A stretch of 64,000 bases of DNA from Trypanosoma brucei. Taxonomy: Eukaryota. Below, in pieces: positions 1 through 59,413 of this stretch. The position numbers were made by a program, and so were the translations under genes. The stretch's first letter is position 1, and every line of letters begins with the position of its first letter. The stretch covers positions 1,440,001 to 1,504,000 of the forward strand of contig CP000069.1 of the NCBI GenBank assembly GCA_000002445.1. Direction: 5' to 3'. The notes under the pieces are model-generated. The model was given only the letters and a program-made list of their open reading frames with translations. It did not search any database and was not told the DNA's origin.

Positions 1-2899
1 CCTTTCAAAAGTGATGTTTAATACGTTTTTTTTTGGAACCTTCCTCGTTCCTGTCCACCTCTTTATTTATTTTGGTAAAATTCTGTAATTGAAGGATGAT
101 GGAAAATAGACTAGGCGCATATGATTCGCTAGTTGATTTTAGTCAGAATTTGACACGTGCAGCATCGCTGCTTCTTCCCAGAGAGACAACCACATCATCA
201 CCGAAACACAAAGTTACACCAAAATATTATTGTAGAAAATAACTGTCATGCGGTAATGTTTTCATCCAGTTAACAAATCTATCACATTTGAGCGGCTTTA
301 GCTTTGTACCTTCCCTCCGCCATGTTGTTGTTGTTTCTTCCATAAGCATATATCACTTCATTTGATGTTTTCTGTTTAGTTTCGCCTCTGCGCCAAATTC
401 ATCACCACATCCCTTCGCCTGCAGTGCCGCTGTGGTAAAGAATAAATAAATAAATATTTATGTAGGTCACAGAGATTTTACATCTAATTAAATTATGCCA
501 CTTCATCCATTATTTATTTTTTGTTTTATTAAACCCACGTATCTTTACCGCGAAACAACAAATGACATATCGCAATAACCGCAGCATTCCATTTGTTTTC
601 TCCCTTATTATGTTAATAAATGCATGTGTTACTTGATAAAAGTGCAGAGCCCGTGATGCATGTGCATGGAATTTCAACAGTATGGCACTTATGGTGTAAC
701 ACAATATCCGTAACACACATACAAATACACACAGAATGGTTTCTTTCGGGCTCAAAATACGTTTTTCATTTTAAAATTCACATTCCACACCTTGTAAAAC
801 ATATACTGGCGAAGGAACTTTTTTGTTTGATACCATCCAAACTCTATCCGCTTATATGTTTAATAAACTGGACTAATTATATTTTTCATATACTTATATC
901 ACAACGGAATTAACGATAATTTGAATGTCGCATCTATTCTTACACTCATAATTTTTATACTTCCGTTTTCTTCCTCGAAACACGTCATGTCTTTTTGAAA
1001 AATGTCCTCATTTGTTTTTATATTTCAACGAATATATGAAAAAGCGAATATTCATATAATCTCTATGATTATCATCCTCTCTAGTGGTGTTGCATTTTTA
1101 TTGGAAGTAAAGAACAAAAGTAGTTTATTGTGTGTAACAACTGAAACATTATTTTTGAGGTGCATAATAGATTTCCGTTAAGTCAAGAAATATTGTGAAG
1201 CGACCGTACTGACTGCTTTTTATTGCGTGGAAACAGTGAACTTATCAATGTATCTTCGGATACGGTGGTGATTCATATTATTCCTTCAACATCCTTTTGA
1301 AGTTAATAGTGCTAAAAGCATCGTATTACACTTTACATGCATTCAAATGCAAACACTTCGACGAAAGCACCTTTTCAGCCTGGAATTATACATTTTTTCC
1401 AATACGTTATTTATTTTGCTGCAGTTACTGTCATGAAACTCTTGCAGCCACCCAATGCTAGCATATGAAACGGCATAGAGGTGCGTGCATGAAACTTGAC
1501 GAATAGATTTGTTAAAATGCAAATGATAGTTATTATACATCAGATGCGTTATTCAAATCATAACAGATATGCTCATGCTTTTCTTCACTTATGATGTATA
1601 TTTTCTTCGTTGTAACAGCGCACAGTGAGATCAAATTATAATCTTTTGATGTGATTACAGATGAGAAATCCTTCCTAAAGTGTCTGAAGTTGTACAAATC
1701 ATATGTATTTATCTACTTTCATTTATTGGGAGAAGCAGTCAAGCGCACATGTGTTTTGTTGATATGTAAACACGAATGAAGAGAGAAGTGAAGCAACTCC
1801 AACATTAGGCAAGCTTCCATGAGCATATAAGTTGTGGAATTAAAGGAAATGGTTGTAAAGTGTGAATAAAGAAAATTCGAATTGCCGTTGCATAAAATAA
1901 CAGAATATGATCTTTTTTTTGTGAAGTATTATCTTTAAGATATAAAAAGACACTTAAAAATATACGCGGATACAAATAACAGGATGATTGTCCAACTTGT
2001 GCACCTCTGACCTCAGTGCTTGTGATTGTATATTAATCGTGCCACTAGATGTCACCGCAAAAAAAATAACATCAGTTTTTGTTACACATACTCGTTTCAT
2101 ATCCATTATTTTGTAAACACGTCTATTTTTTCTTATTAGTTATTAGAGTAGTATGTTGCGATGACGCGTCTCTTGATTAGTTGCCCGTTATTAATTTGCT
2201 TATTTCTATATCCATTTGTTTATTTACTTACGTTAGCTTACACTAAGTTTACACATAATAAACAAACAACGTTATCCCTGCATTTTCCTTCGTGAAGGAG
2301 ACACTAAGGGAGAACACGCGTGATACAATTAATTTCTTTATTATTTTGTCCAATGGGTAGTGATAACTAACGATGCACAACATCTTATATTGCAGTTACT
2401 TATACTTGAGTGTAAAGTGTAATATACATTGCCTTCTTTCTTCATCCAATCAGCACGTCTCTCCCACGTCCATCCCGACACTTCTTTATCTGCCTATCTT
2501 ATTTTTTTAATTCCTTTGTCCGGAAAGGCGGTGCTACACCTTTATCCTTTGGTATGGTTTTCTTGGCCGCTTGCCTTGTGCTTCTCCTGATGGCTTTATT
2601 TAGTGCATCCGCATCCTTTATTTTTTCTTTAGTCTTGTTGAAAATGAAAGTATCACTAACCTTCCTGAAGTTATTACAATGCGCTTTATTCCACGCGGAT
2701 AACGCCCTGGCAGGTTTTGAGGGTGAGGTCACCTCTGCACCACAACTCGCAAAAACGCCAAAAGTGACCCAAAAATGGTCGCTATCAGGACTCAGTGTAA
2801 TTTTCCAATTTAATACCTCACAGTCTGTACATTGCGATGTCTCTTAAGGGAAATACATCCGTTCCCGCCTGACGACGGGTTTCTTTTCTGGCATTTGTT

Positions 2900-3518
2900 C
2901 CAACTATGTTTTTGAAACCATCGATTTTCTAGGAAAATAAACTGAAGTGGCTGTCAAATTAAAATCAGCTGAAAATATAAACGTTGCCGAGACTCTTTCT
3001 AGTAGACACTCCTCCTTCGAACTTTGGATGACTTTCACGACACCTTTAACTAAAATTGATACCACACCACCATGTGAAGAACCTGCCATCCTACATGCTG
3101 GTATCTGCCTATTCTAAGAATTTTACGTCCCGCTGGAGCCGAGTGAATCTCCTGCAGCAGGCAAAACAGCATACAATCCTCGTTGAGCTTCTTCTTCAAG
3201 GCGAGTCGTTGTACCTGAGGTAACGACCCATTGTTCCACTGGGCTCCACGAATCATATGGCAGGGATTATGTTCCACATTTCCCCTTAGTAGTATAAGCC
3301 TATGTATTCCAATCGAAGCGCGCTCGCACGTGCAGGGAAACATTCTAATATATTTCTTCACCCTAGAGTGCCGATACTGCTGCTTACTCCTGCTCTGGTC
3401 ACCTAAAGCCTGCTACCCGCCCCAATCCTGTCGGACAGGGTATAATACGGGCACTTGTCTTCCTCCGATGAGACGGTGTACTGGACCCTGGCGCCACAAT
3501 GAGGTGGCCGGCGTCACC
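2900..3518 (-). mobile_element. Divergent 5' fragment of an ingi-type non-LTR retrotransposon (DIRE/ingi-like)
   Basis: 3420-3518 aligns to the ingi 5' end at 49490-49590 (gatga.acgg.gtactggaccctggc.cca...ttgaggtggccggc.tc.ccaggg) and ends at the same ccaggg terminus. Minus-strand translation 3050-3361 (LLRGNVEHNPCHMIRGAQWNNGSL...CLLQEIHSAPAG) is homologous (~40% by eye) to ingi ORF seg1 (LLSGDVEENPCLSFHGMQWNCAGL...CLLSETRMTPGEA). Similarity continues weakly to ~2900. Confidence 0.5.
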
Positions 3519-3562
3519 AGGGATTTTTCATAATTTTCATAAAATTTGGAAATATCCTTTTA

Positions 3563-3945
3563 ATGCTAAAATTCTACCAAACTCACAAAAGCGGAAACAA
3601 TCAGAGCAATTATCTGATTGAAGAGAAAACTACCATTTCGACACTTCTCCTTTTCTGGTTCTGTTTCACCCTCTTTGCCTTTTCTCCAGCCACAAACGGG
3701 GGCTTGGCCGGGCGTGTTCTATTCTTCCAAGCTGTTTTTTTAGTATGGCCAGTACATTTATCCTCTTTCTTTCCTTCCGCTTTCACTCCCTCTTTAACTT
3801 TGCACTTTCCGTCTTGGAATTCGCAGCCATTTTCGTCGCTGTACACGCCAACTGACTTATCTTTGCATTTTTCTTCTGCTATTTCGGGGTCCAATGTGGT
3901 GGCTGTTGGTTGGTGCTCAAGACTCTGTGTATACAAAAACATTGA
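3563..3945 (-). pseudogene. VSG: VSG C-terminal-domain fragment (3' orphan), frameshifted GPI tail
   Basis: ORF 3610-3942 encodes a Cys-rich VSG C-domain (CEFQDGKCKVKEGVKAEGKKEDKC). The GPI signal (FLFNQIIALIVSAFVSLVEF*) is in a shifted frame at 3563-3640. No N-domain lies upstream. The ingi fragment starts 45 nt beyond the stop. Confidence 0.6.
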
Positions 3946-4106
3946 TAGAGTAAAAAAATCAAATTGGAAACTATGCGAATAAGGGTTAAGGTCGATGTAA
4001 AAAAGAGCCGCTTCATCACTAAAAATTAAAAAATGGCGAAATCAAAAAAATGAAAATTAAAAAAAAAAGTGAAATAAAAAATAATCCAAAAAATTAAAAA
4101 CTCTGA

Positions 4107-4120
4107 CCCTAACCCTAACC
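4107..4120 (-). repeat. Interstitial telomere-type hexamer tract (TTAGGG)2+ within T-rich VSG 3' flank
   Basis: Plus strand reads ccctaaccctaacc, embedded in an A-rich block (3960-4300) ~190 nt downstream of the VSG stop at 4310. Confidence 0.7.
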
Positions 4121-4309
4121 TTCCTACCTATCTTTCTACCTTCTTGTCTTATTGGACAACAAAAATTCAAAAGAAAATAGGAAAAAGGAGAAAAATTTTA
4201 GGTATCAAAAATAAAGTTTTACACGCGCAGGCAGCTTTAAAAATATATTTCCAGGGAATTTTAAATATGTTAAAATATATCAAATTTAGGCAAGAAAAAT
4301 AGGGGGAAA

Positions 4310-5879
4310 TTAAAACAGCAAGGCCATAAAAGCAGCAGCCATACTCAGAGCCAATTGTTTTCCGCCTATAAAACATTCGTCTAGACATTCGTGTTTGGGT
4401 AGTTTCCCTCTTCTATCGACATAATCAATCCATCCACAAACTGCATTTTTGCCTTCTGGTTTCTTACCCTCAACCTTTTTGCATTCCTCTTCCGTTGTCG
4501 CATCGGAGCATTTTATAAGTTTTTTCTCTCCTCCCTCTCCTTGTGGTGGCTTGTAATTTGGATCCTTTACGCACTTTTTATTTGGTCCGTCACTGTCCCA
4601 TTTACAACCATATTTGCAGTTATCTTCTGTTCCTTTCTTTTCGCACGTTACATCTGTTTCGGAAGTTGACTTCTCTGATGCGGAATGGCTTGTTAGACAT
4701 TTCTTGTCCTGTGTCGCTTTAGAAATGGTTTCCTGAATCAAAAGTGCTACGACTTCACTTAACCTGTTAGTCGGTATCTTCTGCATTGTACTGGCCGTCA
4801 GCTTGAGCTCCGATGGAAACACCAGTTCTTCTTCTAACATGTCCTTGATGAATTTGCTTTTGAACTTAGTGGCGCTGTCGCTAAAAAATCTGTTTGGCGG
4901 CCGCCTTGAGTTCATTAGTTGCTGAGACCTGTTCGGGTTTGGCTTTGACGTCGTTTATGGCGAAGTTGATCTCTGCCAGAAATACGTCTCCTGTTAATTC
5001 TTGATAGATACTTGCATAAACGTCGTCATCTGTTATCTCTGGTGTCGTCTTGTACGCATTAGCGGCTTCAATTGCTTCGAGGTATGCCGGTGTCTGAGCT
5101 GAGCTTGCGCTGGTCGGTTCTAGGTCGTCTATCCGGTGGATTTCTGGGCTTGTTGCGCCTGTTGTCAGCAGCCCGGCCATTAGAGTTATGTGTGATGCTG
5201 TGCTGCCAGTGAACATGCCCGTGGCGCTCGGGTGGTCCTCGAAAAACAGGCATTTGTCGAAGCTGGCTTCTGTCGATGCTGCGTTCCCTTCTGGGATTCC
5301 GCTTTTGAAGCTTTGTTCGGAGAATTCCTCTAGCCCTTCTAGCTTTACCGCGTCGGGTATTGCTAGGCTGTCGCATCCCTGTAGGTCCTGGCTACGTCTG
5401 ACCGCTGTTTTTCGGGTCGCTGCATTTGTTAGACATGCGCCGTTGGTTCCGACGTTGGACGCTTTGAGCTGCTCAAGAAGTGTGGTTGCTTCTATAATGC
5501 TGCCAGCCACGATATTTGCTTTTGCTGCTAGGTATATTCCTCCTTTGGCTTTCGTTATTGCTGCCGAGTAGATTTTGTTTATTGCTTTGGCCGCTGCCGC
5601 TGCTCCTATTGCTGCCATTTTAGCCCGCTGCTTGTGCGTTGCTGTAAGTGAATAGATGATTAATTGGTGTTGTAGTTTGATGGCATTGTCCACTATGGGC
5701 TCCGCTGCTTGCAAAGCTGTCGCTGCCGCCGCTGCAGTCTGGCGCATGTCGCCCGCTTTTTTACAGAGCCCTGCTATCTTTGAGCCGTCGAGGGGATTCT
5801 TCGCTGCCGCTGCTGCGTCGGCTATTTGCGTGCGACAGGCCGGTATAAACATCACTATTGGAAATGCTCGTGCTTTCAT
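4310..5879 (-). pseudogene. VSG: VSG, full length with a single frameshift near 4881-4915
   Basis: N-terminal ORF 4881-5879 starts at a true ATG (cat at 5877-5879) with signal-like MKARAFPIVMFIPACRTQ. C-terminal ORF 4310-4915 in another frame has a Cys-rich C-domain and GPI tail SMAAAFMALLF. The two ORFs overlap by 35 nt in different frames. Confidence 0.8.
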
Positions 5880-6769: not shown

Positions 6770-6852
6770 AGTTCTAATTATATTCGTCTATACAAACACT
6801 CACAACACTCTCCTATAATAATAATAATTATTATTATTGCAATTACAACCCT
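6770..6852 (-). repeat. 70-bp repeat (VSG upstream recombination repeat), single copy, reverse-complement orientation
   Basis: tatacaaacactcacaacactctcctataataataataattattattattg...aaccctaac matches the T. brucei 70-bp repeat core (GGAGAGTGTTGTGAGTGT + TAA-rich run) in revcomp. Confidence 0.8.
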
Positions 6853-7194
6853 AACTTTATATCTACAAAAAAATGGGAAATAAAATAAATTAATATATTA
6901 CTCATTTTAATATACAATCACCCTACTGCTGTACACACATGCCTCTGTCATACCAAAGTTTTACAAGTAAAATTTTTTAAAATTTTCAATGAATTGCACA
7001 ATTTGCAAAGGGTTGACAAAACGTGTTAAAATATATTATATTTAAAAAACGTTTTAAAAAATTCTCTCAAAATAGCAATTTTTATAAATTTTTATAAGTC
7101 TCATAAAATTGAGAAAAAGCTTTTACAAATTATTCGTAAAACTGTTATGCTAGAAGAAAAACTGCAAGCAAAAAAGAGACCTTAAGTAGAACAG

Positions 7195-7310
7195 AATTTA
7201 CTCCTGTTGTGTTTGTAGGATTTCTATCATTTCCACCTGTTTGCGCTTCTTTTTCTACTTCCTTCTTGATTTCCTCAGTCAATGTGCACATTTTTCTCTA
7301 GACGGACTTT
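7195..7310 (-). pseudogene. VSG: Short orphan VSG 3'-end fragment
   Basis: Revcomp encodes ...NPTNTTGVNS-like GPI-proximal motif (gaatttactcctgttgtgtttgtaggatt). A 16-mer-like gtgttaaaatatatta lies at ~7021-7036, and a 70-bp repeat at 6770-6852 further downstream. Confidence 0.4.
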
Positions 7311-7766
7311 GGGTTAAAAACGTACCTCCGGAAGTCGAGCACCTTTGGCCGGGATGTGCCAGCGTCAGATCGCGCCGCCGAGGTTTAATTGATAATTTTG
7401 ACTATCAGCTGTTCCCCAATATGAGTATTTTTTAATTTATTTTCCCTTTAAAAGCAAATCGTTTTGCGCAGCGAAACTGCCACGCGCCAGCGTTAAAAAA
7501 ATTTAAAGGCTGCGTGCAGCACAAAACGCAGAACTGAAATTCACAAAAGCAAAATGATAATAGGCTTAACGATATGAAGCTGAAAATGAAAGGAAAAAAT
7601 GAAGCGCGGATATCTCCAGTGGAAATAAGTGCCAGCCTTGTGCTTAAAAAGAAAAAAAAGAGCCGCTGCATCATTAAAAGAATAAAAATTAAAAATAATT
7701 TGGAGCAATCCAGGACGGAGGTGTGGGATTAAAAAAAATTAGCAGTAAGAGGAAAATTAACACGAT

Positions 7767-7786
7767 AACCCTAACCCTAACCTAAC
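7767..7786 (-). repeat. Interstitial telomere-type hexamer tract
   Basis: aaccctaaccctaacctaac on the plus strand, in the A-rich block 7670-8000 downstream of the VSG stop at 8010. Confidence 0.7.
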
Positions 7787-7931
7787 TACCCCACCCACCT
7801 GCACAAAAAAATTCAAAAAAAAAATTCAACGGGAAAAGAAAAAAAATTTAGTTGCCAGAGAAACACAGAATATTTTTTGCAGAGTCACAAACTTACGAAA
7901 CACAGTTCAATTTTTTCGACTGAATTTTTAG

Positions 7932-7947
7932 GTGTTAAAATATATCA
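7932..7947 (-). promoter_or_regulatory. VSG 3'UTR conserved 16-mer (TGATATATTTTAACAC), exact; adjacent TTGCTACTTGAAAAC motif at 7952-7966
   Basis: Plus strand gtgttaaaatatatca, 63 nt downstream of the VSG stop. The 16-mer is the known mRNA-stability element of VSG transcripts. Confidence 0.8.
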
Positions 7948-8009
7948 AAAGTTTTCAAGTAGCAAGAATTTTTTAGCAAAAATTTTTAAGAAAAATAGGG
8001 GTAAAAATT

Positions 8010-9695
8010 TTAAAACAGCAAGGCCGCAAATGCAGAAGAAACCACTAGGGCGAATTGTTTGTTTACTAGAATAGAGGAATCTTTGCACTCTTTTCCATCC
8101 CACTTACAATTCGGAGATTTGCATTCTTTCTCTGGTCTCCCTTTGCATTTCTCTGTTGTTGTTTCAGTTTCTACTCCCGTTTGAGTTTGTGGCAAAGAAA
8201 CTTCAGTTTTTTGTAGCTTTTGTTGCATTATATTTGCACTTTTTCTCTTCTGTGCTCTCTTTTTGAAAAGTACAGAAATCCTTGGAATCGCAGTTTGTAT
8301 CTGTTTCTATTGCTTCACACTCCTTTGCTTTTTCAGACGGCGTTGTAGTTTGCTGTTGGTTTGATCCATTGGTTTGCGCTGCGAAGGCTTTTGGTGCCCG
8401 TAGCAATGCTGTTGCCGTGGCGTTTAACAAGCTTATTTCTGCTTCTAGTGCGGCCAGCTTGATTTGTGTGTGGCGCTTGTCGTACACTTTTGCGGCATTT
8501 CGCAGATTTACTTGCCATTCAATTGGCGGCGTGCCGCCGATGATACTGCCATCGTTGTACTTTACGCAGCGCCCCGTGTGGCTGCCGCTTACGCCTTCGC
8601 CTGTACAGCCGCCGCTGCCGTTGCCTGTTGGTGTTTACGGCTTTGTATAAAATCACTAATCGGCTATTTAGAACAGCAGAACTTTTTTCGCCCGTTTTCA
8701 AGGCCGGTGGGCATTTGTTTGCTATGGCCAGGGCTTTTTCTCTGCCGGCCGTCGTCACATCCCAGTTGCCGTTGTTTGGGGGGGGGGGGGCTCTCATCAC
8801 ACCCTTTGCTGCATGTTTTGCCTCCGGTTGCTTCACTAGTGTGTCCGCAGCAGATGCAGAGCAAATCTGACAGGAGCGCCTTGCCGGCTTCCGTCCCTGG
8901 TGTTGCAGCACCCGTGCCGCACACCGCTTGTCTCGTTCCGGTAAATGTTAGTGTTGCTGCTTTCCCGGCAGAACCGTAAAGCGTTTTGTTTAGGTGGCCG
9001 TTTATTGCGGCTTTGTCGGTTCCTTTTGTCGTAGTCGCTGCAGCCTCTGATATAGTCAGTCCCTTATCGGCTATGAATGCCAATTGTCTTATGGCATCGC
9101 TGTTCGATTTTAGGACGCTAAACTGTTTTATCTTGTCTTTCAGGTTTTGAGGTGCGTCTTCCTGCACCGACTTAGTCCACGCCGTCCAGTGGTTTTCGTA
9201 AGGGGCGGCTTGTTCCTTGAAAGGGCTTTGCAATGCGCCCCATGCCTCTTCCTTTTTAGCTTTTGCAAGCGCCTGTATCGGTTCTGGAGCTAGAGAAAGG
9301 TTTATCGCCATTAGCTCTTCTGCAATGGTTTGAATGGTTGTTGCTGCTTGTACTTCCGGCGTATCTTCTCTTGCGAATTCGATGAGACCGCATAGAGCTA
9401 TGAAATCACCGCCGTTTTGTCCTTCCTTGACTGTCCCCTTTACGTTTTTGGCAAGTGTCGCAACTTCTAGCGTAATGACAGTCCAAAGTATGTTTTGGCG
9501 CATTTCCCCTGCAAGAACTCGGGCGGTCGGCAACTCCAGACATATTTTAGAAAAGAAAGTGGTGAAAATAGTGTGGTAATGTTTATATAAGCTCGAAAAC
9601 TTACCAACTATTGCAGTTCCTGGTGGTATAGCGACAACACTGTGGACCTTTGCGATTATTTGTCGCATCGGTTGCAGCGTTTCAACAATCCTCAT
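8010..9695 (-). pseudogene. VSG: VSG pseudogene (multiple frameshifts, degenerate N-terminus)
   Basis: Three ORF pieces in different frames: 8010-8228 (C-domain + GPI tail [13 protein letters not shown]), 8203-8487, and 8664-9695 (A-type N-domain). A G12 homopolymer at 8777-8790 sits in the gap between pieces. No recognisable signal peptide or ATG. Confidence 0.75.
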
Positions 9696-10942: not shown

Positions 10943-11184
10943 ATATCTATTAAAATAAGCTAAATAAAAAATTAAAAACAATGCACAACAGCACCTTTTT
11001 CATACCAGATAACCCTACTGCTGTTCTCCCATAGGCCATTATCACACTCATTTTATAAATATTAAAAATTTTTCAATTTCTCATCAAAAGAGTTTAAAAT
11101 ATATCAAATGATATTAAATTTACCAAATTCTCTATCAAAATAGCAAATTTATAAATTTGAGAAAAAATCTTTTTCGAAACTTAA

Positions 11185-12651
11185 TTATAGAAGCAAAAAT
11201 GCAAGGAAAGTAGGGACTTTGCTAATGACAAAAGAATTGTTTCCTGTGGTATTTGTAGTTTTTCCATCATTTTCCATATTCACCCCCTCTTTAAGTTTGC
11301 ATTTTCCGTCTTTGTGTTCGCAGTCTGTGTCTGCAATGTATTTGCTTTTTTCTGTGTCTTCCTTGCATTTTTCTTTTTTAGTATCTGAAACTTCCTTTTG
11401 GGCTGTTATCGCTGATTTTTTCCGCTGTCGTCTGCTGTAGGAAAAAGCGAGTGTGGTAGCGAATTTTCCAGGCTTGTTTGTGTCTTTGATCGTTGTTTTT
11501 ACAGGGTTGTTATCATTGTCGTAAGTGATTTCCTCAGTTGCCAAGGGATCTACCAGGTCTGCGGTTAGAGTTGACTCTCCTGCCGGAAGTAGAGCCTTAA
11601 CTGCTTCGGTTTGGCTGGTGGCTTCTTCTTTTGTGTTGACTTTTCCTGTTGCCAGAAGCTGTGCGAGTGCCCTCAGGTTACCTTCGTTGGCTAGTGTCGT
11701 CTTGCTTTTCAGCAACGGCCGCTCGTATAATTTGATGTCTGCGCCACGGTGCCTGCAGATGGCATTTGCGACTTTCTTTTGTGTCGTTAAGTGAGATTTG
11801 CTGTCTGTGTCGGCGTCTACGCACCCCGATCCTGCTCCCTGTCCTTTGAATAGTGATTGCTTTGCTGGGTCCTCGTCCTCTCCCTTTTTCCTCGTAATTG
11901 ATTTAACGCCGAGTGCAACTGTTAGGCTCCTCAGGCTCGCGCCGCTGTCGCCGCTGGTTGCGCAGGCGCCTTTTTTGTACGAGCGGTGCGGCCCGCCGGT
12001 GCCTGCGTTACCTTGAGCTGCTACAATTAGTTCGTACTCTGGAGTTAAGAAGCGCTCATCTTTGAGTAGCTTGATGTTTTCAATTTCTTGGAGTTCTACA
12101 ACCGCTTTGTCTATGTGTGTGCCGCTGCCTGCTGCTTCGGTGCAGCTGTCGGTCGTTGACGGCCCTCGGGATGTCGGTATAGTGCAGTGCTCGCCTGTGC
12201 CGGCGGACAAAAACGTCTGCGTCGTCGTTGCTGGTGTTGCGACCTGCGTATCCACCGCGTCGCGTTCTGCATGGATTAGCGCTTTCGTTTGTGACACCCT
12301 TGCTTTCAGCGTCTTCACCAGCTCTGTTATTTGGGCTTCTCCGGCTGCTATTGCTGCCTCTTGCTTCAATTCGGCTTCTTTTGTTTCGGCAGAAAGTGCA
12401 ATGTACGCCGCTGCCTTCTGAGTGTCTTCTGTACACACTGCCGCGAGGGTCAGTAGGGAATAGTCGTTGCTTAGCGCTGTAGCCCTTGATCGTGCTGTTG
12501 ACAGTTTCCCTTTAAAGTTAGAGATGAGTTTCTCAAGGTACATTACTTCATGGTAGGGGGAAGTGACTGCTTCTATGGATGTCTCTGCTGCACCCCCAAA
12601 CATTGCCGGCAGCAACACAACTGTTTGCATTGCTAACAACACCGCCGTCAT
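11185..12651 (-). CDS. VSG: VSG, apparently intact (488 aa)
   Basis: Single ORF with a true ATG (cat 12649-12651). Signal peptide MTAVLLAMQTVVLLPAMFGGAAE. Cys-containing C-domain. GPI signal GNNSFVISKVPTFLAFLLL. 16-mer-like element ~80 nt downstream (11096-11112). Confidence 0.85.
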   Translation of the reverse strand: MTAVLLAMQTVVLLPAMFGGAAETSIEAVTSPYHEVMYLEKLISNFKGKLSTARSRATALSNDYSLLTLAAVCTEDTQKAAAYIALSAETKEAELKQEAAIAAGEAQITELVKTLKARVSQTKALIHAERDAVDTQVATPATTTQTFLSAGTGEHCTIPTSRGPSTTDSCTEAAGSGTHIDKAVVELQEIENIKLLKDERFLTPEYELIVAAQGNAGTGGPHRSYKKGACATSGDSGASLRSLTVALGVKSITRKKGEDEDPAKQSLFKGQGAGSGCVDADTDSKSHLTTQKKVANAICRHRGADIKLYERPLLKSKTTLANEGNLRALAQLLATGKVNTKEEATSQTEAVKALLPAGESTLTADLVDPLATEEITYDNDNNPVKTTIKDTNKPGKFATTLAFSYSRRQRKKSAITAQKEVSDTKKEKCKEDTEKSKYIADTDCEHKDGKCKLKEGVNMENDGKTTNTTGNNSFVISKVPTFLAFLLL

Positions 12652-13899
12652 ACTCTGTTTCTATTTTGGCTTTGCTTGAGGTCATTGTGGGCAACGTGCT
12701 GCTTTGGAAAAATCAATTGCTTACTGCTTGCTGTACAGGTCGCACACCTGGGCACTACATTGTGATTATTATGTATTTCCATGCTTTTTGCTTGAAATGT
12801 ATTGGCCTTAGAGTTTAAATTCCAATTGTACACTCTTTTGCAATATTCGAACCCATTTTACATCCCCCTTATCAATCTTTAAATTTTTCAGCCGCGCAAC
12901 AGCCACACCAGCACTTTTTTCTACTGCATACGAAAAAACTTCTTTCTCTCTCTACATAAAAAAGTGTTAAATTTCATATGTTTTCACCTCAGGCTAGCAG
13001 TTTTCAATCTAGTAGCATAGCTATGACTTTGAACAACAAGATAGCGTTGCCCCTTCCCACGGACACGATTGTTTTTCTGCTTAAGGATTCGATGATCTTG
13101 CTTCTAGTTGAGCCGATTGCGTTTAACACTGAGTAATTTGTGGTCATGACGTGCTTTTTTCGCTGGTGTTGCTTTTTAAGTACGGTCCGTTAGTTTTTCA
13201 CAGGCGGCAACCCTTATGTTAACTACACATCCCTTGTAGGTCTTCGTGTCTATCCCGTACACCAATAGGTAACTTTAGGTGCATCATGAAAAACTTGTTC
13301 TATTTCAATTCGGTCCTCTGCAGCCATAAACACGCACCATTTTAAGTGATGTCCGCGTTTATATTCTTTTTTTTACTCGCCACACTAATCCACTAGCGCT
13401 CCTGGTTTAAAAATAACCCACTTGATAATATTATATTGTTTACTGTTATTATTAGCTCTTATTCCTATATCTGATGAGAGGAATACATCGACATTAACTC
13501 TCAATAACCTACCATTTACCCTTCTTCTTCCCAAATGGAGATTACAATTTGCCAACGATTAAACGTTAGACGCTATTATCATGTTTGCTCTTGCATTGAA
13601 TAATTTTTAAGTGAACTGTTCTGCACAATCTCTTCTTGTTAAAATTTCTGCGCATTACTGTGTTTTGCTTTCAACAATTATTTAGTTTTATAGGTGTTCT
13701 TCCGTGGGTTTTCAGCATGGCATACCGACTCAATTTGTCCTGTTCACTAAGCTATCTCTTTCGCCCTCGCTGTTTCCTATATCACCTTGTTGTGTACAAT
13801 GGTGCCCATCGGTGACTTTTTTAAAACTCCACGCCTGCATCTTTATCCTCTCTTTCTCTCTGTGTTTTCTATAATAATATTCCCCTTGGACCCATTCTT

Positions 13900-14035
13900 T
13901 CTCACTAACAACACTCTCCTATTATTATTATTATTACTGCTCTTATTATAATATTAGTATATACACACTCATAACACTATCCTATCATTACTATCATTGT
14001 TATTAGTGCGATTAATATTATTATTATAACTCTAA
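13900..14035 (-). repeat. 70-bp repeats, two tandem copies
   Basis: Two consecutive units each containing cac(t)aacactctcctat + (tta)n + tattataatatt.gtatatacacactca. Confidence 0.75.
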
Positions 14036-14287
14036 CAAATATATATAAAATATGCAACATAACAAAATTGCGAAATTTTATAATAACACTAACTTTTGAT
14101 AATTTATTAACATTATATTTTACACTCATAGTCAACTAATCATCATAACTTTTTATATCTTTGAGAATATTCACTAATTTTACACTTATGTCTAAAAGTA
14201 TTAAAATATCTTACATTTCAGCAAATTCTTCAAAAATAGCAAATATCATAAATTTCATAGAGTAACAATCATCAAAATTCTGGAATG

Positions 14288-14700
14288 CTAAAATTGAAAC
14301 GTACTCACAAATAAGGCAGCAGCCATCAGAACCAATTTCTTATTTACAAGGAAACTGGATACGGAATTTTGGTTCAACTTTTCCCTGTCCATCAATGAAA
14401 TAAATCCATCCGAAAACAGATTTTTTTCCCTCCGTAGGCTTGCCTGGCGGCTTGGCACATTTCTCTGGATCAGCATACTGGCCACAATTAGGGTCTGCTG
14501 TCCCTGCAGCTCCACCTGTTCCTGCTGTGTTTGTCTGAGCTTCTCCATCATTGGGTTTGCAGTGGTTTCCTGTTGTAGCTGTGGTGCTATTCCATTTGAT
14601 GTTAGCTGCTGTGTACGTTGCGTTTGTTATGTAACGGTTGCTGTATGCAGGTGTCGCTGAAGCTTGCTGCCTAATTGGCCTCATGTGTTTCTGCTGAATA
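14288..14700 (-). pseudogene. VSG: Orphan VSG C-terminal fragment (frameshifted)
   Basis: ORF 14340-14684 encodes a C-domain (NCGQYADPEKCAKPPGKPTEGKKSVFGWIYFIDGQGK). The GPI tail (NKKLVLMAAALFVSTFQF) is in another frame at 14288-14345. Sequence upstream of 14700 is not VSG-like. Confidence 0.65.
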
Positions 14701-15045
14701 TCGTTCGACTGCCCCTACCTTGCCTCAAAAGCACAGAGAGGCTGCAGTGAAACTACCACACGACGCTGTAAAAAACGTGTTATTATTATTTAATTAAAGA
14801 CGGCAAAAAACGAAAGTAAGTTTAAAAAAATATATACCTCAAAATACAGAGTTGACACTCACAAAAGCGAAAAAAGTAACAAATAAAGGTGACGTTAGGG
14901 GTAAAGAATATAGAGGCGAAGATGCCTGCTGCGTTAATAAAGGCTAGCGTTCGCATCAAAATATAGGCGCCGTATCACTAAAAAAAACTAAACTCGAGAC
15001 GATTCAATGCTAATATATATAAAATTATTAGTAGAGAGAAGAAAA

Positions 15046-15075
15046 AACCCTAACCCTAACCCGCTAACCCGAAAC
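15046..15075 (-). repeat. Interstitial telomere-type hexamer tract (degenerate 4-5 units)
   Basis: aaccctaaccctaacccgctaacccgaaac. A second short tract, tcctaaccctaaaaag, lies at 15349-15363. Both are in the A-rich block 14790-15520 downstream of the VSG stop at 15529. Confidence 0.7.
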
Positions 15076-15470
15076 ACCGCGAGGTGCGTTTTGAAGAAAA
15101 AAGGCGCCGTCAAAAAAAAAAACGAAAAACCAAGAAGACAAAAAAAAAGTCGCGGGCGGGGCGTAAAAAAAAGTCAAATTCAAAAAATCATAAAATTAAA
15201 AAAATAAAATCATGTAATACAAAAAAAAGTGTAAAAAAGAGCCGGTGAAAGACGCGCTAAAAAAAACGCGAATTCCAAAAATTAAAAAAAAGCAAAAAAT
15301 GAACGAAGAAAATTGAGGAAAAAACCTTGAAAAAAACACCTAAAAAAATCCTAACCCTAAAAAGTTCAAAAAAATTAAACGTAAAAAGGAAAAAATTTTT
15401 AGTTTCCAAAAAATATTTTTTAGAGAATCAGATTTTTTACAACCAACAAAAAATTCTCGGCTGAATTTAG

Positions 15471-15486
15471 GTGTTAAAATATATCA
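15471..15486 (-). promoter_or_regulatory. VSG 3'UTR 16-mer, exact
   Basis: gtgttaaaatatatca, 43 nt downstream of the VSG stop. Confidence 0.8.
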
Positions 15487-15528
15487 AATAGCAAAAATTT
15501 TAGCGAAGAAAAAAGTTGAGGGGGAGCT

Positions 15529-16914
15529 TTAAAAAAGCAAAAATGCAAGTGTAAGAAGGGAAGTTTTAATAAGAAAAGAATTGCTTCCTGTGGTGTTTGT
15601 GGTTTTGCTATCTCCTCCATCTTTCTGCTCTGTCTTTTCTTCTAACTTTTTGGCCTCCTCTTTATTCAATTTGCACTTTGCATCCTTTCCTGTTCCCTCC
15701 ACTTTGCATGGTGGTTTACATTCATCTCCTGTTCCTTTCTTTTCGCAAGTTGTGTCTGTTTCTGTGATCTCAACAACTCCTGGAGTTGTTTGAGGCAGTG
15801 GTAAGGTCGTTCCCTCCGTGGCTAGCTTTGCTGCTTCGTACGCATTTCTTGCTGTCAGGGCTAGGTTTTTTAGCTGTTGTCGATAGTGACGAAGAGCTGC
15901 AGAAGCTGTTTGGCCAGCTTTTAGCTTTTCGATCGCATCCCTCATTTTGTTTTCCCAGGTTATTCCCGTCCCGGGTGTCTTTAACTGTGCGACGTAGTTT
16001 ACACAGTTTTGTTCGCTGGCGCCGTCGCATTGGCTGGCGCTGTACTTTCCAAGGACATATCTTATTTCGTCACCGGTTTCCCCGTTGGGATTCCGGCCCA
16101 GCATGCTGTGGAATATTGCTAGTCTGGCCTCGATTAGTTCCCCGGTTAGGGCTGGTGGTTTTGCCGGGGATTTGCAAAGGCTGATGACATGGGTTATCGC
16201 CTGCTGACCGGTATTACCGGCGCCGTCTACTTGTGGCGCGGTGGCGCTGCCGCACTCAGTGGTGGTGGCGGCCGCTTTGTTTGTGCAGAGGCAAATCATG
16301 TCGTCTAGTAAATTTTTTCCTGCCGCGCTATTACCGTTGCTGGTCGGGCCGCAGCTGTTTCTGCTGCCGCCGAAGTCGCCTTCTGTGTACTTGCTGTCTT
16401 TGTCGCCGTATATGGCCGTGAGTATATCTTCTATCGCTTTTGCGTGGCTTTCTGTCGCTGTCTTCTGGGCAGCGTCGTATTTTTCTTGTATTGCGTCCGT
16501 TTGTTTTATCAGTTGTGTTATTATCGCTTGCGCTGAGGCTTTTTGGGCTTTGTTTGTGAGTTTGGCGTATATTTGTTTGTTTTCATCTCCATGTTTTGAG
16601 TTTATTATCTCTGTTATGTGCTGTTGCCACGCTTTTAGTTTTGCCGCATCGTTCCCTTGCATCAGATCCTTGTATTTTCCATTCGCATCTTTTAGGAAGT
16701 CGTCATCTGCTACTGATACATTGAGGTTGTAGATTGGCGTTCTTAGCTCCGAGAAAGTCGCAGATGTTTCTTCGGTTGCTGGCGGGTCGGCCGCGTCTTT
16801 TAATGTGAACAAGTTGCATAGAGCGCCGAATTCAACTGCGTGCTGGTTCTTTGCAGCATTTGCATTCCTTAATAGTATACACAGAGCAAGAAATCTAATA
16901 ATTAACATATTCAT
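15529..16914 (-). CDS. VSG: VSG, apparently intact (B-type N-domain; ~461 aa from ATG at 16912-16914)
   Basis: The track ORF 15529-16947 begins at a GTG. The first in-frame ATG gives MNMLIIRFLALCILLRNANA (signal peptide), followed by AKNQHAVEFGALCNL. Cys-rich C-domain. GPI signal GSNSFLIKTSLLTLAFLLF. Confidence 0.85.
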   Translation of the reverse strand: MNMLIIRFLALCILLRNANAAKNQHAVEFGALCNLFTLKDAADPPATEETSATFSELRTPIYNLNVSVADDDFLKDANGKYKDLMQGNDAAKLKAWQQHITEIINSKHGDENKQIYAKLTNKAQKASAQAIITQLIKQTDAIQEKYDAAQKTATESHAKAIEDILTAIYGDKDSKYTEGDFGGSRNSCGPTSNGNSAAGKNLLDDMICLCTNKAAATTTECGSATAPQVDGAGNTGQQAITHVISLCKSPAKPPALTGELIEARLAIFHSMLGRNPNGETGDEIRYVLGKYSASQCDGASEQNCVNYVAQLKTPGTGITWENKMRDAIEKLKAGQTASAALRHYRQQLKNLALTARNAYEAAKLATEGTTLPLPQTTPGVVEITETDTTCEKKGTGDECKPPCKVEGTGKDAKCKLNKEEAKKLEEKTEQKDGGDSKTTNTTGSNSFLIKTSLLTLAFLLF

Positions 16915-22243: not shown

Positions 22244-22295
<52 letters not shown>

Positions 22296-27969: not shown

Positions 27970-28155
27970 TACTACTACTACTATTTTATTATTATTACTA
28001 CTCTTATTATAATATTCGTATATATACACACTCACAACACTCTCCTATCATTATCATTATTATTATTATAATTATTACTGCTCTTATTATAATATTCGTA
28101 TATACACACACTCACAACACTCTCCTATCATTATCATTATTATTATTATAACGCT
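27970..28155 (-). repeat. 70-bp repeats, 2-3 tandem copies
   Basis: Two near-identical units ...ctcttattataatattcgtatatatacacactcacaacactctcctatcattatcattattattattataat..., preceded by (tac)/(tta) runs. Confidence 0.85.
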
Positions 28156-37535: not shown

Positions 37536-37789
37536 AATATCCATAAAATAAACAACATAAGACAAATTAAAATATCACTCATTTTTCATACCGTGCCACC
37601 CTACTAATTAAAACCTATAAGCAACTTTCACACCAAAATTTCATATTTTCAGTTGCTGAGAAAGTGTTAAAATATGGCAAAAATAGCTAAGTTTATAAAT
37701 TATATAGAGTTTCATAAAACTGAGCAGAATTATTTTAGAATATTAGAATGCTAGAATTAAACGAAAAACTAACACAGCAAGCACCTGAG

Positions 37790-39240
37790 GAACAGAAACT
37801 CTCAAATTGTGAGAAAACGATTTTTCATCTTACTTGTCAGTTTCAACTGCCGGAAAGCATCTTTCACCCTCAGGCTTTTTATTATCAAAATCACAGCCAG
37901 TTTCATCTTTCCAAGGTTTCTCTGTGGTATGCTTTTTGCATTCGTCTGCTGTTTTAGGTGGATCTGCTGGTTTGTCTGCTTTTGATGGACATGAGGAGCC
38001 AGCTTGGTGTTTCTTTTTTTATTCCTGTTCCTTAATGAAACGGCGAACAGCGTAATAAGTCGTAGCATCTGCGATATCTTGTGGTGCTGTTATTGTTTTT
38101 AGCTGTCTGTCGCCATTTCCTCCGACAGCGGCTTTGGGCGGAGTCAGGTCGTCAAGCGACTTTCCTATAGTGTTTATGATTTCGTCTCCATTTTCACCAA
38201 TGGCTTCCTTTAGTAAGTTATCCACTTTGGCTTTAGTCTCTTGGTTGCTGTACTTCGCCGTTTCACCTTCTATCACTGTCGCTATTTTTTCCATGAGAGT
38301 GCTACTTGTTATTACCGTTTTTAAGTCCAGGTTCATCGTCAGCCGTCTAAGCTCCGAGGTTACTTTTTCTAGGACTGCTATGTTTTTTTAACTCTGCCGC
38401 AATGGTTTTGGCGCTCGGTATGTCCGTGCTCCCTGTGGATGCTGTATACTCTTCCTGGCTCCCGTATGTTTTGCGCGTTAGTGCAAGTGTTTCTTCAACG
38501 AATAGTTTGCCGCTCACTACCGCTAGTTTGGTGGTTTGGCCACTCGTGCAGGCGTTGCTGGCTGTGTGTTTGCCTGTGGCCGCCGCATGTGCGCACACCG
38601 TGAGTACTGAGTCAACTCCAGCGTTGGTTACAGTTGCCGTTTTTAAGCCGATTAATACGATTGAGTTCGTTCTTGTGCTGTCTGCCGTCGGCGGTGTTGC
38701 ATCAATGTCTCGGGCGGTTGCATCCCGCATGTAAGCCGCGTTTTCGTTGATTTTCGTCGTCAGCTAGATCTTCTGGTACCTGTTGTCAGAAAATCCGTTG
38801 TTTGCTCTGACAAAGTTAGAGGAATTAATGGCAGCTGTTGCTAGCTCTACTATAGCTTCCATTTGGCCTCTAAGTTTGTAAGCTGATCTCGCAGCAGCGT
38901 AGATCGTCTGACGGTGCTTATTGATCGTGTTTTATACCTCGCTAGCTAAACCCAGTAGCCTCTGGGACAGAAGATTGGCGACAAGCGATTGTTGGCCGCT
39001 TGATGCTTGAGCTACTAGCTGTAGCTTCGCCGCTGTAGCAGCTGCTGCAACGCTCTGCTGTGCTCCTGTTGTTAATATGGCCAGAGCGTTGTCTGCCAGT
39101 TCCTTTAGATAATCTGCCGTATGTCAGGGTTTTTTTGCTGCCGCCTTCAGTGGGTGCAGAGTAGGGGGGCCGACTGCATTTCTTGCTGCGAATAGAGCTA
39201 ATAGAATGTATACTCTTACATGCGATAGCGGTAAAGGTAC
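37790..39240 (-). pseudogene. VSG: VSG pseudogene (A-type; multiple stops and frameshifts)
   Basis: C-domain ECKKHTTEKPWKDETGCDFDNKKPEGERCFPAV plus an out-of-frame hydrophobic tail VLAVLVFRLILAF at 37790-38000. N-domain pieces 38019-38336 and 38347-38730. Further N-terminal sequence with stops at 38740-39130. Confidence 0.7.
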
Positions 39241-40494
39241 ATGTGCCAACGTTACTGTTAAAGTCCGTCGGAAGTTCTGGCCGTTTCGGGTTTGCTGGTG
39301 CATCGCTACCTTCTTTTGTTTTTTGAGAGATTTATTGCTCTTCAATGTTCCAAAAGTGGGAAATTGTACGCCATATGATTAAAAAATGTTTCTAGAAAAA
39401 TAGAACTCAGTTGAGCTAAAATTGTCCACTTTAAAAAAACCTTTATAATTGTACATCTATATCTCAAACAGTTAAGATTTGTTTTTTTTGCTTCTAATGT
39501 ACCACAATTCCTTTGTTCTGATGCACATTAAATGAAGATATAACGCCGGTGTTTTCGGCTCACACGTTGATATTTTCATTTTTCGCAATAATACTGGCTT
39601 ACTGTAGACCTCTTTCGTTTTTTTCTTGGAAATTAATATACTGGTTTCAAAGTTTTTCCTGAAGTTTCTTAATGCATTCCGTCACTGCCGCGTCAGTGCG
39701 TATTCTTCTGGGAATTAACTGTTTCCTGAAATCCCTTAATGTGTGGCAAGTTTAGCAATACGAAATGGGAAGAGTATCATTACAATTTTTTGTAGTTTAT
39801 AGAATCCCTCTATCGCATCATATACGTTGAAGTTCAAGCCGTTTTCTCCTTTTGATTCTCCTTTCGCTGTTAAAACTAGTATATTAGAGTTCTTAGTTTT
39901 AAATTGTCATCCACATAATATAATATTGTTGCCGAAAAATGTTACTAAATTTTAGTGTATTTGTTAAGAAGAGGCCTTTGACATTATATAAACTTACCCA
40001 GTCCATCACCATCTCTTACCCTTTACAGCTAGACATTATGATCGGTAATCAGAGTAAAAACAATAGTCACCACAATCTCTGGTGTAGTATCTATCTTTTT
40101 TAAAGAAACGCAGTGCATCATCGACAACTCCTCTTCCTTCTAAAGTATTGTTTCCCCCGGTGTTGTGATATCCGTATCGTCTTGTTTTTTTTCATATTTT
40201 CTTCCTTTTCAATTAGTTTTCTATCGATGCTTCTGTAGGAAACGTAGCAAAACTATTTTTCTTGTGTGATAGACTCTGTCACTCCACAATTGTCCACTTA
40301 ATAACACCCTTGTATGATAATATATTTCATCCTATTTGTGTTTAAAAATGCATATATTCCATCTCTCTCCTTTTTCTTTAATAAAAATTCTTTATGCTCT
40401 CCGATTACTACTCCAATTCACTCACTTATTAGAATTGCACCCTTGTTATTAATTAAGTGTCTCTCTTTAGTGGTTTCGGCTAACCCACTACACA

Positions 40495-44099: not shown

Positions 44100-44111
44100 T
44101 ACTCACTTGAT
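44100..44111. repeat. 12-mer tactcacttgat, copy 1 of 3 (flanks the RIME-A-type fragment)
   Basis: Identical 12-mer at 44100-44111, 44337-44348 and 49591-49602, each abutting an ingi/RIME terminus. Confidence 0.7.
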
Positions 44112-44336
44112 GGATGACACTGCTGATGGCACACTGGCACGTGCCAAGGGACCGACAAATGAAAAACGGTGTCCCAGCAAGACGCTGCTGATCCCTGTGC
44201 TGTATGATGCCGTAGCCGGAACAAAGCAGTGTTCCCTATGAGAGGAACTCTGCTGGCTCTTGGCTTCCCCCGATGATACGGGGTACTGGACCCTGGCACC
44301 ACGTTGAGGTGGCCGGCATCGCCAGGGTACTCACTT
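44112..44336 (-). mobile_element. RIME-A-type fragment (first ~225 bp of an ingi/RIME 5' end), 3'-truncated
   Basis: ~95% identical to the ingi 5' end at 49366-49590. Ends at the same ccaggg terminus. Bounded on both sides by tactcacttgat. Confidence 0.75.

Positions 44337-59328: not shown

Positions 59329-59413
<85 letters not shown>

What the first reader, a model, noticed from the sequence alone, without database searches (positions are those of the whole stretch)
3960..4300. Class-II VSG 3' flanks: T-rich block with interstitial (TTAGGG)2-5, each followed by an orphan VSG 3' fragment
Three VSGs (4310-5879, 8010-9695, 15529-16914) share a homologous ~250-400-nt A-rich (minus-strand T-rich) downstream flank. 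It contains the 16-mer and then short telomere-hexamer tracts at 4107-4120, 7767-7786, 15046-15075 and 15349-15363.

In all three cases the flank is followed by an orphan VSG C-terminal fragment with its own 3'UTR element (3563-3945, 7195-7310, 14288-14700) and only then the next 70-bp repeat.

The other cassettes go straight from 3'UTR to the conserved block and 70-bp repeat.

This looks like a footprint of incoming VSG segments that carried telomere-proximal sequence, from telomeric or minichromosomal donors. They were joined into a resident VSG whose 3' end was left behind, which suggests break-induced or telomere-associated recombination rather than classical 70-bp-to-3'UTR conversion.
Basis: partly seen in the sequence, partly recalled or inferred. 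Interest (0 to 1): 0.6.

Follow-up and report, generated by a model that had tools for sequence, protein, structure and literature searches.

The report
Telomere-type flanks behind internal VSG genes
In a silent surface-antigen (VSG) gene array of Trypanosoma brucei, three genes are followed by the T-rich, TTAGGG-containing flank reported in the literature for chromosome-end VSG copies, and each abuts the leftover tail of another VSG gene; this is most likely an old recombination scar made of known parts, not a new kind of element.

Summary
The window is a T. brucei brucei TREU927 VSG array with every gene on the minus strand. TTAGGG dimers occur only four times, all on the VSG sense strand, in the 3' flanks of three VSGs (A 4310-5879, B 8010-9695, D 15529-16914). 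These three flanks are homologous to each other and to nothing else in the window or in 58 kb of arrays from T. equiperdum and T. b. gambiense. They differ from the ordinary array flank from the first base after the conserved 3'UTR 16-mer. Each is followed by a VSG C-terminal fragment that is unrelated to the gene upstream. Two fragments keep the ordinary array flank and 70-bp repeat; the third is cut by a retroelement.

The TTAGGG tracts sit at the same aligned position inside the flank family, 170-450 nt from the junctions. They are inherited flank modules, not fused telomeres or telomerase insertions.

Papers describe TTAGGG-like repeats 3' of telomere-proximal VSGs. The best reading is therefore that telomere-derived VSG copies were joined illegitimately into truncated array cassettes. 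I could not obtain telomeric donor sequences, so this origin is inferred, not shown.

Interest is modest: known components, with a non-classical 3' end point and an implied telomere-to-array direction.

The parts
4310..5879 (-). VSG A, an A-type pseudogene with one frameshift near 4881-4915
   Evidence: ORFs 4881-5879 and 4310-4915. Pfam Trypan_glycop 6.7e-27 and Trypan_glycop_C 2.7e-14.
4267..4282 (-). 3'UTR 16-mer of VSG A (TGATATATTTTAACAT, 1 mismatch)
3938..4266 (-). Telomere-type flank of A. It has a proximal T-rich module, a TTAGGG-like run ending in the perfect tract 4106-4120, then a T-rich module holding the conserved GGCTCTTTTTT at 3999-4009. Sense strand is 48% T and 25% A.
3566..3957 (-). 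Orphan A: the end of another VSG (hinge, C-terminal domain and GPI signal GSFLFNQIIALIVSAFVSLVEF*). It is frameshifted and unrelated to VSG A's C-terminus.
   Evidence: Translation. tblastn to VSG C residues 397-484 and others, E 4e-5 to 6e-6. Stop codon at 3566-3568.
3450..3537 (-). 5' end of a degenerate ingi-type retroelement that interrupts orphan A's 3' flank
   Evidence: 81-86% identity to the ingi 5' ends at 44255-44342 and 49518-49590. Endonuclease-domain homology at 2427-2825.
8010..9695 (-). VSG B, a B-type pseudogene. The N-terminal ORF is intact; the middle has several stops and frameshifts. C-terminus is ...[32 protein letters not shown].
   Evidence: VSG_B 4.1e-36
7932..7947 (-). 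3'UTR 16-mer of VSG B (perfect)
7440..7931 (-). Telomere-type flank of B. Proximal module, perfect tract 7766-7782 preceded by a G-rich degenerate run, GGCTCTTTTTT at 7654-7664, and a distal module shared only with D.
7145..7318 (-). Orphan B: the last ~50 codons of a VSG with an NTTG...-type GPI signal, unlike VSG B's own C-terminus
6790..7038 (-). Orphan B's own 16-mer (7023-7038), the ordinary array block and the 70-bp repeat (6790-6860)
15529..16914 (-). VSG D, an intact B-type VSG (XP_845634)
15471..15486 (-). 3'UTR 16-mer of VSG D (perfect)
14715..15470 (-). Telomere-type flank of D, with the TTAGGG + T-rich module duplicated. Tract 1 is 15350-15360; GGCTCTTTTTT is at 15233-15243; tract 2 is 15046-15062 (degenerate units to 15075); the distal module is shared with B.
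   Evidence: (second copy 15128-14961, E 0.014)
14288..14603 (-). Orphan D: a frameshifted VSG C-terminal domain with the GPI signal SSFLVNKKLVLMAAALFVSTFQF*. It is a different class from VSG D's C-terminus. VSG-like coding may extend up to about 14700.
   Evidence: (Trypan_glycop_C 22.9 bits against a 21.4 cut-off)
13903..14270 (-). Orphan D's degenerate 16-mer (14198-14210), the ordinary array block and two 70-bp repeat cores (13903-13977)

Best explanation
VSGs A, B and D are chromosome-internal copies that still carry the kind of 3' flank that lies between a telomeric VSG (expression-site or minichromosomal) and the terminal TTAGGG array. That flank is a T-rich spacer with short embedded TTAGGG-like runs.

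Each VSG-plus-flank unit was placed in the array by a recombination event whose downstream end did not use the usual homology in the C-terminal coding region or 3'UTR. The copied or transferred tract instead ran 350-900 nt past the stop codon into the telomere-type spacer. It was then joined illegitimately, probably by microhomology, to a broken resident cassette. The last 150-400 nt of the resident VSG, its 3'UTR, the ordinary array block and the 70-bp repeat were left behind.

My preferred sub-mechanism is ectopic gene conversion by synthesis-dependent strand annealing from a telomeric donor. Homologous capture at the 3' end failed because the donor and resident C-terminal classes differ.

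Shown here:
- the discrete flank family;
- its modular homology;
- the orientation and fixed position of the tracts;
- the unrelated orphans and their ordinary array context.

Inferred:
- the telomeric origin (from the literature only);
- the direction of transfer;
- the type of junction.

The elements are relics with no demonstrated present function.
For: - All four TTAGGG tracts are on the VSG sense strand, against 0.14 expected by chance.
- A, B and D flanks are homologous only to each other.
- They split from the ordinary flank immediately after the 16-mer. Within-class local scores are 26-41, against 10-26 between classes; ordinary flanks score 23-56 among themselves.
- The sense strand is T-skewed: T 43-49% and A 19-25%. 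Ordinary blocks have T roughly equal to A.
- The stop-to-tract distance is 168-227 nt. Expression sites show 200-1590 nt from VSG to telomeric repeats (PMC2567434).
- T- and G/T-rich sequences lie downstream of expression-site VSGs, and 'residual ES sequences from recombination' are reported in subtelomeres (PMC10686619).
- The orphans align to the C-terminal ends of other VSGs, differ in class from their upstream gene, and two are followed by the ordinary block and 70-bp repeat.
- Orphans accompany 3 of 3 telomere-type flanks and 0 of 14 ordinary cassettes, by my own count of cassettes (Fisher p=0.0015).
- None of 15 further VSG 3' ends in 58 kb of T. equiperdum and T. b. gambiense arrays has the flank or a TTAGGG dimer.
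- Three different junction positions and three unrelated orphans argue for separate events.
Against: - I could not fetch any sequence of a real telomeric VSG flank, so 'telomere-type' is not shown by alignment.
- The flanks are only 61-67% identical to each other. VSG B is heavily degenerate and A is frameshifted. The events are therefore old, or the family could be an old internal one.
- All three cassettes lie within 17 kb, so local history rather than three independent imports is possible.
- Nothing explains why all three junctions fall in the last ~400 nt or less of a VSG coding region.
- The sample is small: about 17 cassettes here and 15 elsewhere.
Confidence: 0.6

Rival explanations
1. 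Serial healing of a chromosome end. Each flank-bearing VSG was once the terminal gene. Its telomere was lost and the end eroded into the spacer. The end was then extended by microhomology-primed break-induced replication, starting inside the C-terminal region of a VSG on another chromosome end. That template itself ended in a telomeric VSG. Repeating this three times would give D, then C and B, then A in series.
For: - The three cases are consecutive and separated by only 0-1 ordinary cassettes.
- The flanks are truncated at different depths: 352, 691 and 925 nt from the stop codon to the orphan.
- Break-induced replication of telomere-adjacent VSGs is documented in T. brucei (PMC12137147).
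Against: - It requires the VSG sense direction to point at the telomere when each event happened. I could not establish the orientation of the window on the chromosome.
- It gives no reason why invasion should start in a C-terminal coding region.
- The flanks are diverged (61-67%), so no recent series is visible.
Confidence: 0.15
2. A second, purely internal family of VSG 3' flanks. The T-rich block with its short TTAGGG run is an old array intergenic variant unrelated to telomeres, and the orphans come from unrelated deletions.
For: - Flank divergence (61-67%) is similar to that among ordinary blocks (59-68%).
- Two of the three VSGs are pseudogenes.
- No telomeric sequence was compared.
Against: - The hexamer is exactly the telomere repeat, in telomere orientation, at about the minimum VSG-to-telomere distance seen in expression sites.
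- The literature ties TTAGGG-like repeats to telomere-proximal VSGs.
- The flank is absent from 28 other VSG 3' ends examined, 13 in the window and 15 elsewhere.
- The 3-of-3 association with orphans of three unrelated classes (p=0.0015) is unexplained under this view.
Confidence: 0.15
3. The tracts are remnants of a telomere fusion, or were added by telomerase at a double-strand break, as proposed for short interstitial telomeric sequences in vertebrates.
For: Short (TTAGGG)2-3 runs at internal sites resemble vertebrate short interstitial telomeric sequences, which are reported to be inserted during break repair (PMC7215372 and PMC2246262, abstracts listed).
Against: - The tracts occupy the same aligned column in three diverged homologous flanks, so they were inherited and not inserted independently.
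- They lie 170-450 nt from the junction with the orphan, and family sequence continues beyond them.
Confidence: 0.05
4. Assembly artefact: telomeric clones were mis-joined into the array.
For: VSG arrays are repetitive and hard to assemble.
Against: - There are three separate instances with different junctions and diverged sequence.
- The flanking cassettes are continuous and ordinary.
- The tracts are only 11-17 nt long, not long telomere arrays.
Confidence: 0.03

Closest known systems
Conserved 3' organisation of telomere-proximal VSGs (Aline & Stuart 1989, as cited by Hall et al. 2013, PMC3708902)
   Same: Directly after the VSG 3'UTR comes a T-rich spacer with 'TTAGGG-like' repeats in G-strand orientation. 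The first tract lies about 170-230 nt after the stop codon, matching the ~200-nt minimum spacing in expression sites.
   Different: Here the spacer is chromosome-internal. It is truncated after 350-900 nt and runs into another VSG's C-terminal coding sequence instead of the terminal repeat array. I could not compare the sequences directly.
Classical duplicative transposition (gene conversion) of VSG cassettes, bounded by the 70-bp repeat upstream and by the C-terminal coding region or 3'UTR downstream
   Same: The moved unit is a VSG cassette. The two flank families diverge exactly at the 16-mer, the usual 3' limit. The window also holds a textbook example: cassette C has a 96% copy in T. equiperdum whose homology starts in the 70-bp repeat.
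   Different: The 3' end point lies beyond the 3'UTR in non-homologous spacer. The product is a junction with a leftover resident 3' end, not a clean replacement. The implied direction is telomere to array, the reverse of the usual flow.
VSG gene fragments in the silent archive. The genome papers, as I recall them (Berriman et al. 2005; Marcello & Barry 2007; neither could be read here), report many fragments, mostly C-terminal.
   Same: The three orphans are C-terminal-only fragments with their own 3'UTR elements, lying in an array.
   Different: Here each fragment is tied to a specific upstream structure, the telomere-type flank. That suggests how at least some such fragments arise.
Short interstitial telomeric sequences of vertebrates
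   Same: A few TTAGGG units at non-terminal sites.
   Different: Those are thought to be added at break sites. Here the tracts are inherited parts of a repeated flank and are not at the junctions.

Membership tests
T. brucei subtelomeric VSG array cassette | VSG coding sequence (A- or B-type N-terminal domain plus C-terminal domain and GPI signal) | tested here: met
   Pfam Trypan_glycop, VSG_B and Trypan_glycop_C hits. D is 100% identical to TREU927 XP_845634.
T. brucei subtelomeric VSG array cassette | 70-bp repeat upstream and the 3'UTR 16-mer TGATATATTTTAACAC downstream | tested here: met
   12 matches to the 70-bp core motif against 0.27 expected. 11 matches to the 16-mer against 0.10 expected, including A, B and D.
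T. brucei subtelomeric VSG array cassette | Ordinary conserved block between the 16-mer and the next 70-bp repeat | tested here: not met
   A, B and D lack it directly after their 16-mer. It follows orphans B and D instead.
Telomere-proximal VSG 3' flank | TTAGGG-like repeats 3' of the VSG, in G-strand orientation on the sense strand | tested here: met
   Four tracts, all on the sense strand. The defining feature is taken from PMC3708902.
Telomere-proximal VSG 3' flank | Spacing from the VSG to the telomeric repeats within the 200-1590 nt range seen in expression sites | tested here: met
   168-227 nt to the first tract and 466 nt to D's second tract. The range is from PMC2567434. D's 168 nt is slightly below 200.
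Telomere-proximal VSG 3' flank | Sequence homology to the spacers of real telomeric (expression-site, metacyclic or minichromosomal) VSGs | not testable with these tools
   No trypanosome telomeric DNA could be reached. Exact-protein look-ups of the TREU927 VSGs and of a Lister 427 VSG failed. Two metagenome scans gave nothing useful.
Telomere-proximal VSG 3' flank | Continuation into a long terminal TTAGGG array | tested here: not met
   The flanks end in VSG C-terminal fragments. The tracts are only 11-17 nt long.
Telomere fusion or telomerase-healing scar | Telomere repeats located exactly at the junction between the two joined sequences | tested here: not met
   170-450 nt of flank-family sequence lies between the last tract and the orphan.

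The most novel reading that the evidence does not exclude
The silent VSG archive is regularly replenished from telomeres. VSG copies that have resided at expression sites or minichromosome ends, possibly including mosaics assembled there, are written back into internal arrays by conversion tracts that overshoot the 3'UTR. Each event truncates a resident cassette and so generates the abundant C-terminal-only VSG fragments. The telomere-type flank would then be a genome-wide marker for dating and counting telomere-to-array transfers.
Probability: 0.2. Interest if true: 0.6.

Novelty: new member of a known kind. Interest (0 to 1): 0.35.

Why it matters
Antigenic variation depends on a flow of VSG sequence from silent arrays to telomeric expression sites. 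How the arrays themselves are built, renewed and littered with C-terminal fragments is much less clear. Suppose the T-rich/TTAGGG flank is confirmed as telomere-derived. These loci would then be direct sequence evidence for the reverse flow, from telomere to array. They would also show one concrete way in which orphan C-terminal fragments arise. The flank would be a simple marker (16-mer, then ~110-150 nt, then TTAGGG x2) for finding every such event in complete assemblies. The short internal TTAGGG runs are also candidate weak binding sites for telomere proteins inside subtelomeres. As it stands, this is an ordinary-looking recombination scar built from known parts.

Tried and rejected
1. Fetching the source chromosome or telomeric VSG loci by exact-protein look-up.
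- The TREU927 VSGs and a Lister 427 VSG (CAQ57400) are not on record.
- Only T. equiperdum OVI and T. b. gambiense array loci came back (L001-L004).
- L005 is an unrelated eukaryotic contig, brought in by a spurious 52-residue cluster member.

2. Protein homology searches to widen the set of VSGs with genomic context.
- The D search gave 18 hits, the A C-terminus search 4, and a C-terminal-domain profile none below E=0.001.
- Cluster look-ups found no further members with contigs.

3. Metagenome scans. The pattern 16-mer + gap + TTAGGG x2 gave 0 hits. The extended 16-mer gave 2 chance hits in AT-rich contigs; the one contig inspected shares only the 24-nt query match.

4. Literature.
- Marcello & Barry 2007 and Cross et al. 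2014 are not held.
- No paper in the library describes this flank-plus-orphan arrangement.

5. Rejected ideas.
- The orphans are not tandem duplicates of the upstream gene's own 3' end: the classes differ and there is no BLAST match.
- The three units are not recent local duplicates of one another: the orphans are unrelated and the junctions differ.
- The weak hits of flank D in L001 and L002 are chance; the L002 hit lies in an ordinary cassette and the L001 hit was not inspected.

Full report
WHAT THE WINDOW IS

The window is a silent VSG array of Trypanosoma brucei brucei TREU927.
- The intact VSG at 15529-16914 is 100% identical to XP_845634/AAZ12075, on a 1,618,915-bp record. Its neighbours at 11185-12651 and 40781-42244 are XP_845633 and XP_845635.
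- All VSG-coding segments lie on the minus strand.
- The array is interrupted by an ingi retrotransposon at about 44.3-49.6 kb.
- I call the three genes of the finding A (4310-5879), B (8010-9695) and D (15529-16914). C is the gene between B and D.

CHECKING THE OBSERVATION

TTAGGG tracts
- TTAGGGTTAGGG with at most one mismatch occurs four times, against 0.14 expected. All four are on the VSG sense strand.
- The perfectly periodic runs are 4106-4120, 7766-7782, 15046-15062 and 15350-15360.
- That is 2-3 perfect units, flanked in A, B and D's second tract by degenerate TTAGGG-like units.

Flank homology
- The three flanks align.
- In a sensitive self-BLAST of the window, the stretches 3938-4285, 7522-7949 and 14840-15489 match only each other.
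- Local alignment of the sequence 3' of the 16-mer beats dinucleotide shuffles: z=7.5 for A-B, 7.3 for B-D and 3.1 for A-D.
- An nhmmer profile of the family finds only A, B and D, plus a weaker second copy inside D (15128-14961, E=0.014). It finds nothing else in the window or in the external array loci L001-L004.

Orphan fragments
- All three are real VSG C-terminal fragments: 3957-3566 and about 14603-14288 (both frameshifted), and 7318-7145.

Other cassettes
- In the other cassettes the 16-mer is followed by a ~200-nt conserved block and then the 70-bp repeat. The same block follows orphans B and D.

- Orphan A's 3' flank is cut at 3537 by the 5' end of a degenerate ingi-type element, so no 70-bp repeat follows it inside the window.
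- 'Class II' is not a property of the proteins. A is A-type and B and D are B-type. The three have different C-terminal and GPI-signal classes.

ANATOMY

The flank family is modular. Read on the VSG sense strand, the order is:
1. The 3'UTR with a perfect or near-perfect 16-mer.
2. A proximal T-rich module (...GGAAACTAAAATTTTTTCCTTTTT...GAA-TTTTT).
3. The TTAGGG tract.
4. A T-rich module ending in (G/C)CGGCTCTTTTTT (3999-4009, 7654-7664, 15233-15243).
5. A distal module present only in B and D (about 7640-7440 and 14960-14715).

Further features:
- D carries modules 3 and 4 twice.
- The sense strand is 43-49% T and only 19-25% A. The ordinary block has T roughly equal to A.
- The two flank classes separate from the first base after the 16-mer. 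For the 160 nt downstream, A/B/D score 26-41 with one another and 10-26 with ordinary flanks. Ordinary flanks score 23-56 among themselves.
- The flanks stop at different depths: 352, 691 and 925 nt from the stop codon to the orphan.
- The tracts are never at the junction. Between 170 and 450 nt of family sequence follow the last tract.

THE ORPHANS

- Each orphan belongs to a different C-terminal class from the gene upstream of it.
- Orphan A resembles the C-termini of VSG C and of the VSG at 28373. Orphan B resembles the NTTGSNSF-type ends of D and of the VSG at 40781. Orphan D resembles A's own C-terminal class.
- They are therefore not duplications of the neighbour's 3' end, and they are not related to each other.
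- By my count, orphans accompany 3 of 3 telomere-type flanks and 0 of 14 ordinary cassettes (Fisher p=0.0015).

EVIDENCE FROM ELSEWHERE

- I recovered 58 kb of VSG arrays from T. equiperdum OVI (L001, L002, L004) and T. b. gambiense DAL972 (L003). They hold 15 ordinary 3' blocks, no TTAGGG dimer and no match to the flank profile.
- L004 also gives a contrast case. Cassette C has a 96.4% copy there, and its homology begins inside the 70-bp repeat, the classical boundary.

WHAT THE LITERATURE SAYS

- Hall et al. [quoted passage not shown] They flag such repeats on five minichromosomal reads of this same strain (PMC3708902).
- In the Lister 427 expression sites, the VSG lies 200-1590 nt from the telomeric repeats (PMC2567434). 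Here the first tract is 168-227 nt after the stop codon.
- RAP1 ChIP found T- and G/T-rich sequence downstream of expression-site VSGs. The authors attribute weak subtelomeric peaks to 'residual ES sequences from recombination' (PMC10686619).
- T. brucei is stated to have chromosome-internal TTAGGG repeats (PMC8191777).
- I found no paper in the library that describes the flank-plus-orphan arrangement. The two papers most likely to do so, Marcello & Barry 2007 and Cross et al. 2014, were not available.

INTERPRETATION

- Best reading: A, B and D are internal copies that kept the spacer normally found between a telomeric VSG and its telomere. Each was joined, beyond the usual 3' limit of VSG conversion, into a resident cassette whose 3' end survives as the orphan.
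- The tracts occupy the same aligned column in three diverged flanks and are not at the junctions. They are therefore inherited spacer modules. They are not remnants of the terminal array, not fusion points and not telomerase additions.
- Plain break-induced replication would run to the end of the donor chromosome, so an internal product needs a second, illegitimate join.
- I favour ectopic gene conversion that failed to find 3' homology. This fits the mismatch of C-terminal classes in all three cases, but that step is inference.
- Serial end-healing of a former chromosome end would explain why the three cases lie in a row. It depends on the orientation of the array relative to the telomere, which I could not establish.
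- The events are old, or the donors were already diverged. The flanks are 61-67% identical, B is heavily degenerate and A is frameshifted.

WHAT REMAINS OPEN

- No real telomeric flank was aligned, so 'telomere-type' rests on published description.
- All three junctions lie in the last ~400 nt or less of a VSG coding region, and I have no explanation for this.
- The sample is small and the three cases are clustered within 17 kb.

VERDICT

- The components are known. The particular combination (a non-classical 3' end point and an implied telomere-to-array direction) is at most a new instance of known recombination biology.
- Interest is modest.

Noticed in passing
window 1-3537 (minus strand): A degenerate ingi-type retroelement. 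Its endonuclease domain is 30% identical to the window's ingi ORF at 2427-2825. Its 5' end at 3450-3537 is 81-86% identical to ingi 5' ends. It is inserted directly after orphan A's 3'UTR, replacing the expected ordinary block and 70-bp repeat.
   Followed up: partly
window 44109-49602: A near full-length ingi (ORFs 45501-47942 and 47867-49090). Next to it, at 44109-44339, is an extra 231-nt copy (95% identical) of the ingi 5' end, which suggests a second RIME/ingi fragment alongside.
   Followed up: partly
window 11093-13968; L004 8683-11556: Cassette C (an 'atypical' VSG, XP_845633) has a 96.4% identical copy in T. equiperdum OVI contig CZPT02001608. The homology starts inside the 70-bp repeat and the upstream context is different. 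This is a clean example of a classical cassette boundary.
   Followed up: partly
window 3566-3957, 7145-7318, 14288-14603: All three acceptor junctions fall within the last ~400 nt or less of a VSG coding region, and each orphan is of a different C-terminal class from the VSG upstream. The positional preference is unexplained.
   Followed up: partly
window 4267-4282, 7932-7947, 15471-15486 compared with the other 16-mers: The three telomere-type cassettes have perfect or single-mismatch 16-mers. Most ordinary cassettes in the window have 1-2 mismatches or no detectable 16-mer. The numbers are too small to test.
   Followed up: no
window 40781-42244: This intact VSG (XP_845635) clusters at 90% identity or more with a separately deposited 486-residue T. 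brucei VSG (AGQ50180.1).
   Followed up: no
window 22244-22294, 59329-59411, 27982-28151: Long (TAT)17 and (TAT)28 runs and a 2.1-copy 80-nt tandem. These are the 70-bp-repeat regions of ordinary cassettes, and repeat length varies widely between cassettes.
   Followed up: no
window 37700-39300 (minus strand): A VSG pseudogene whose C-terminus (...CDFDNKKPEGERCFPAVETDK*) was missed by all tblastn queries. It shows only by translation upstream of the 16-mer at 37664.
   Followed up: partly
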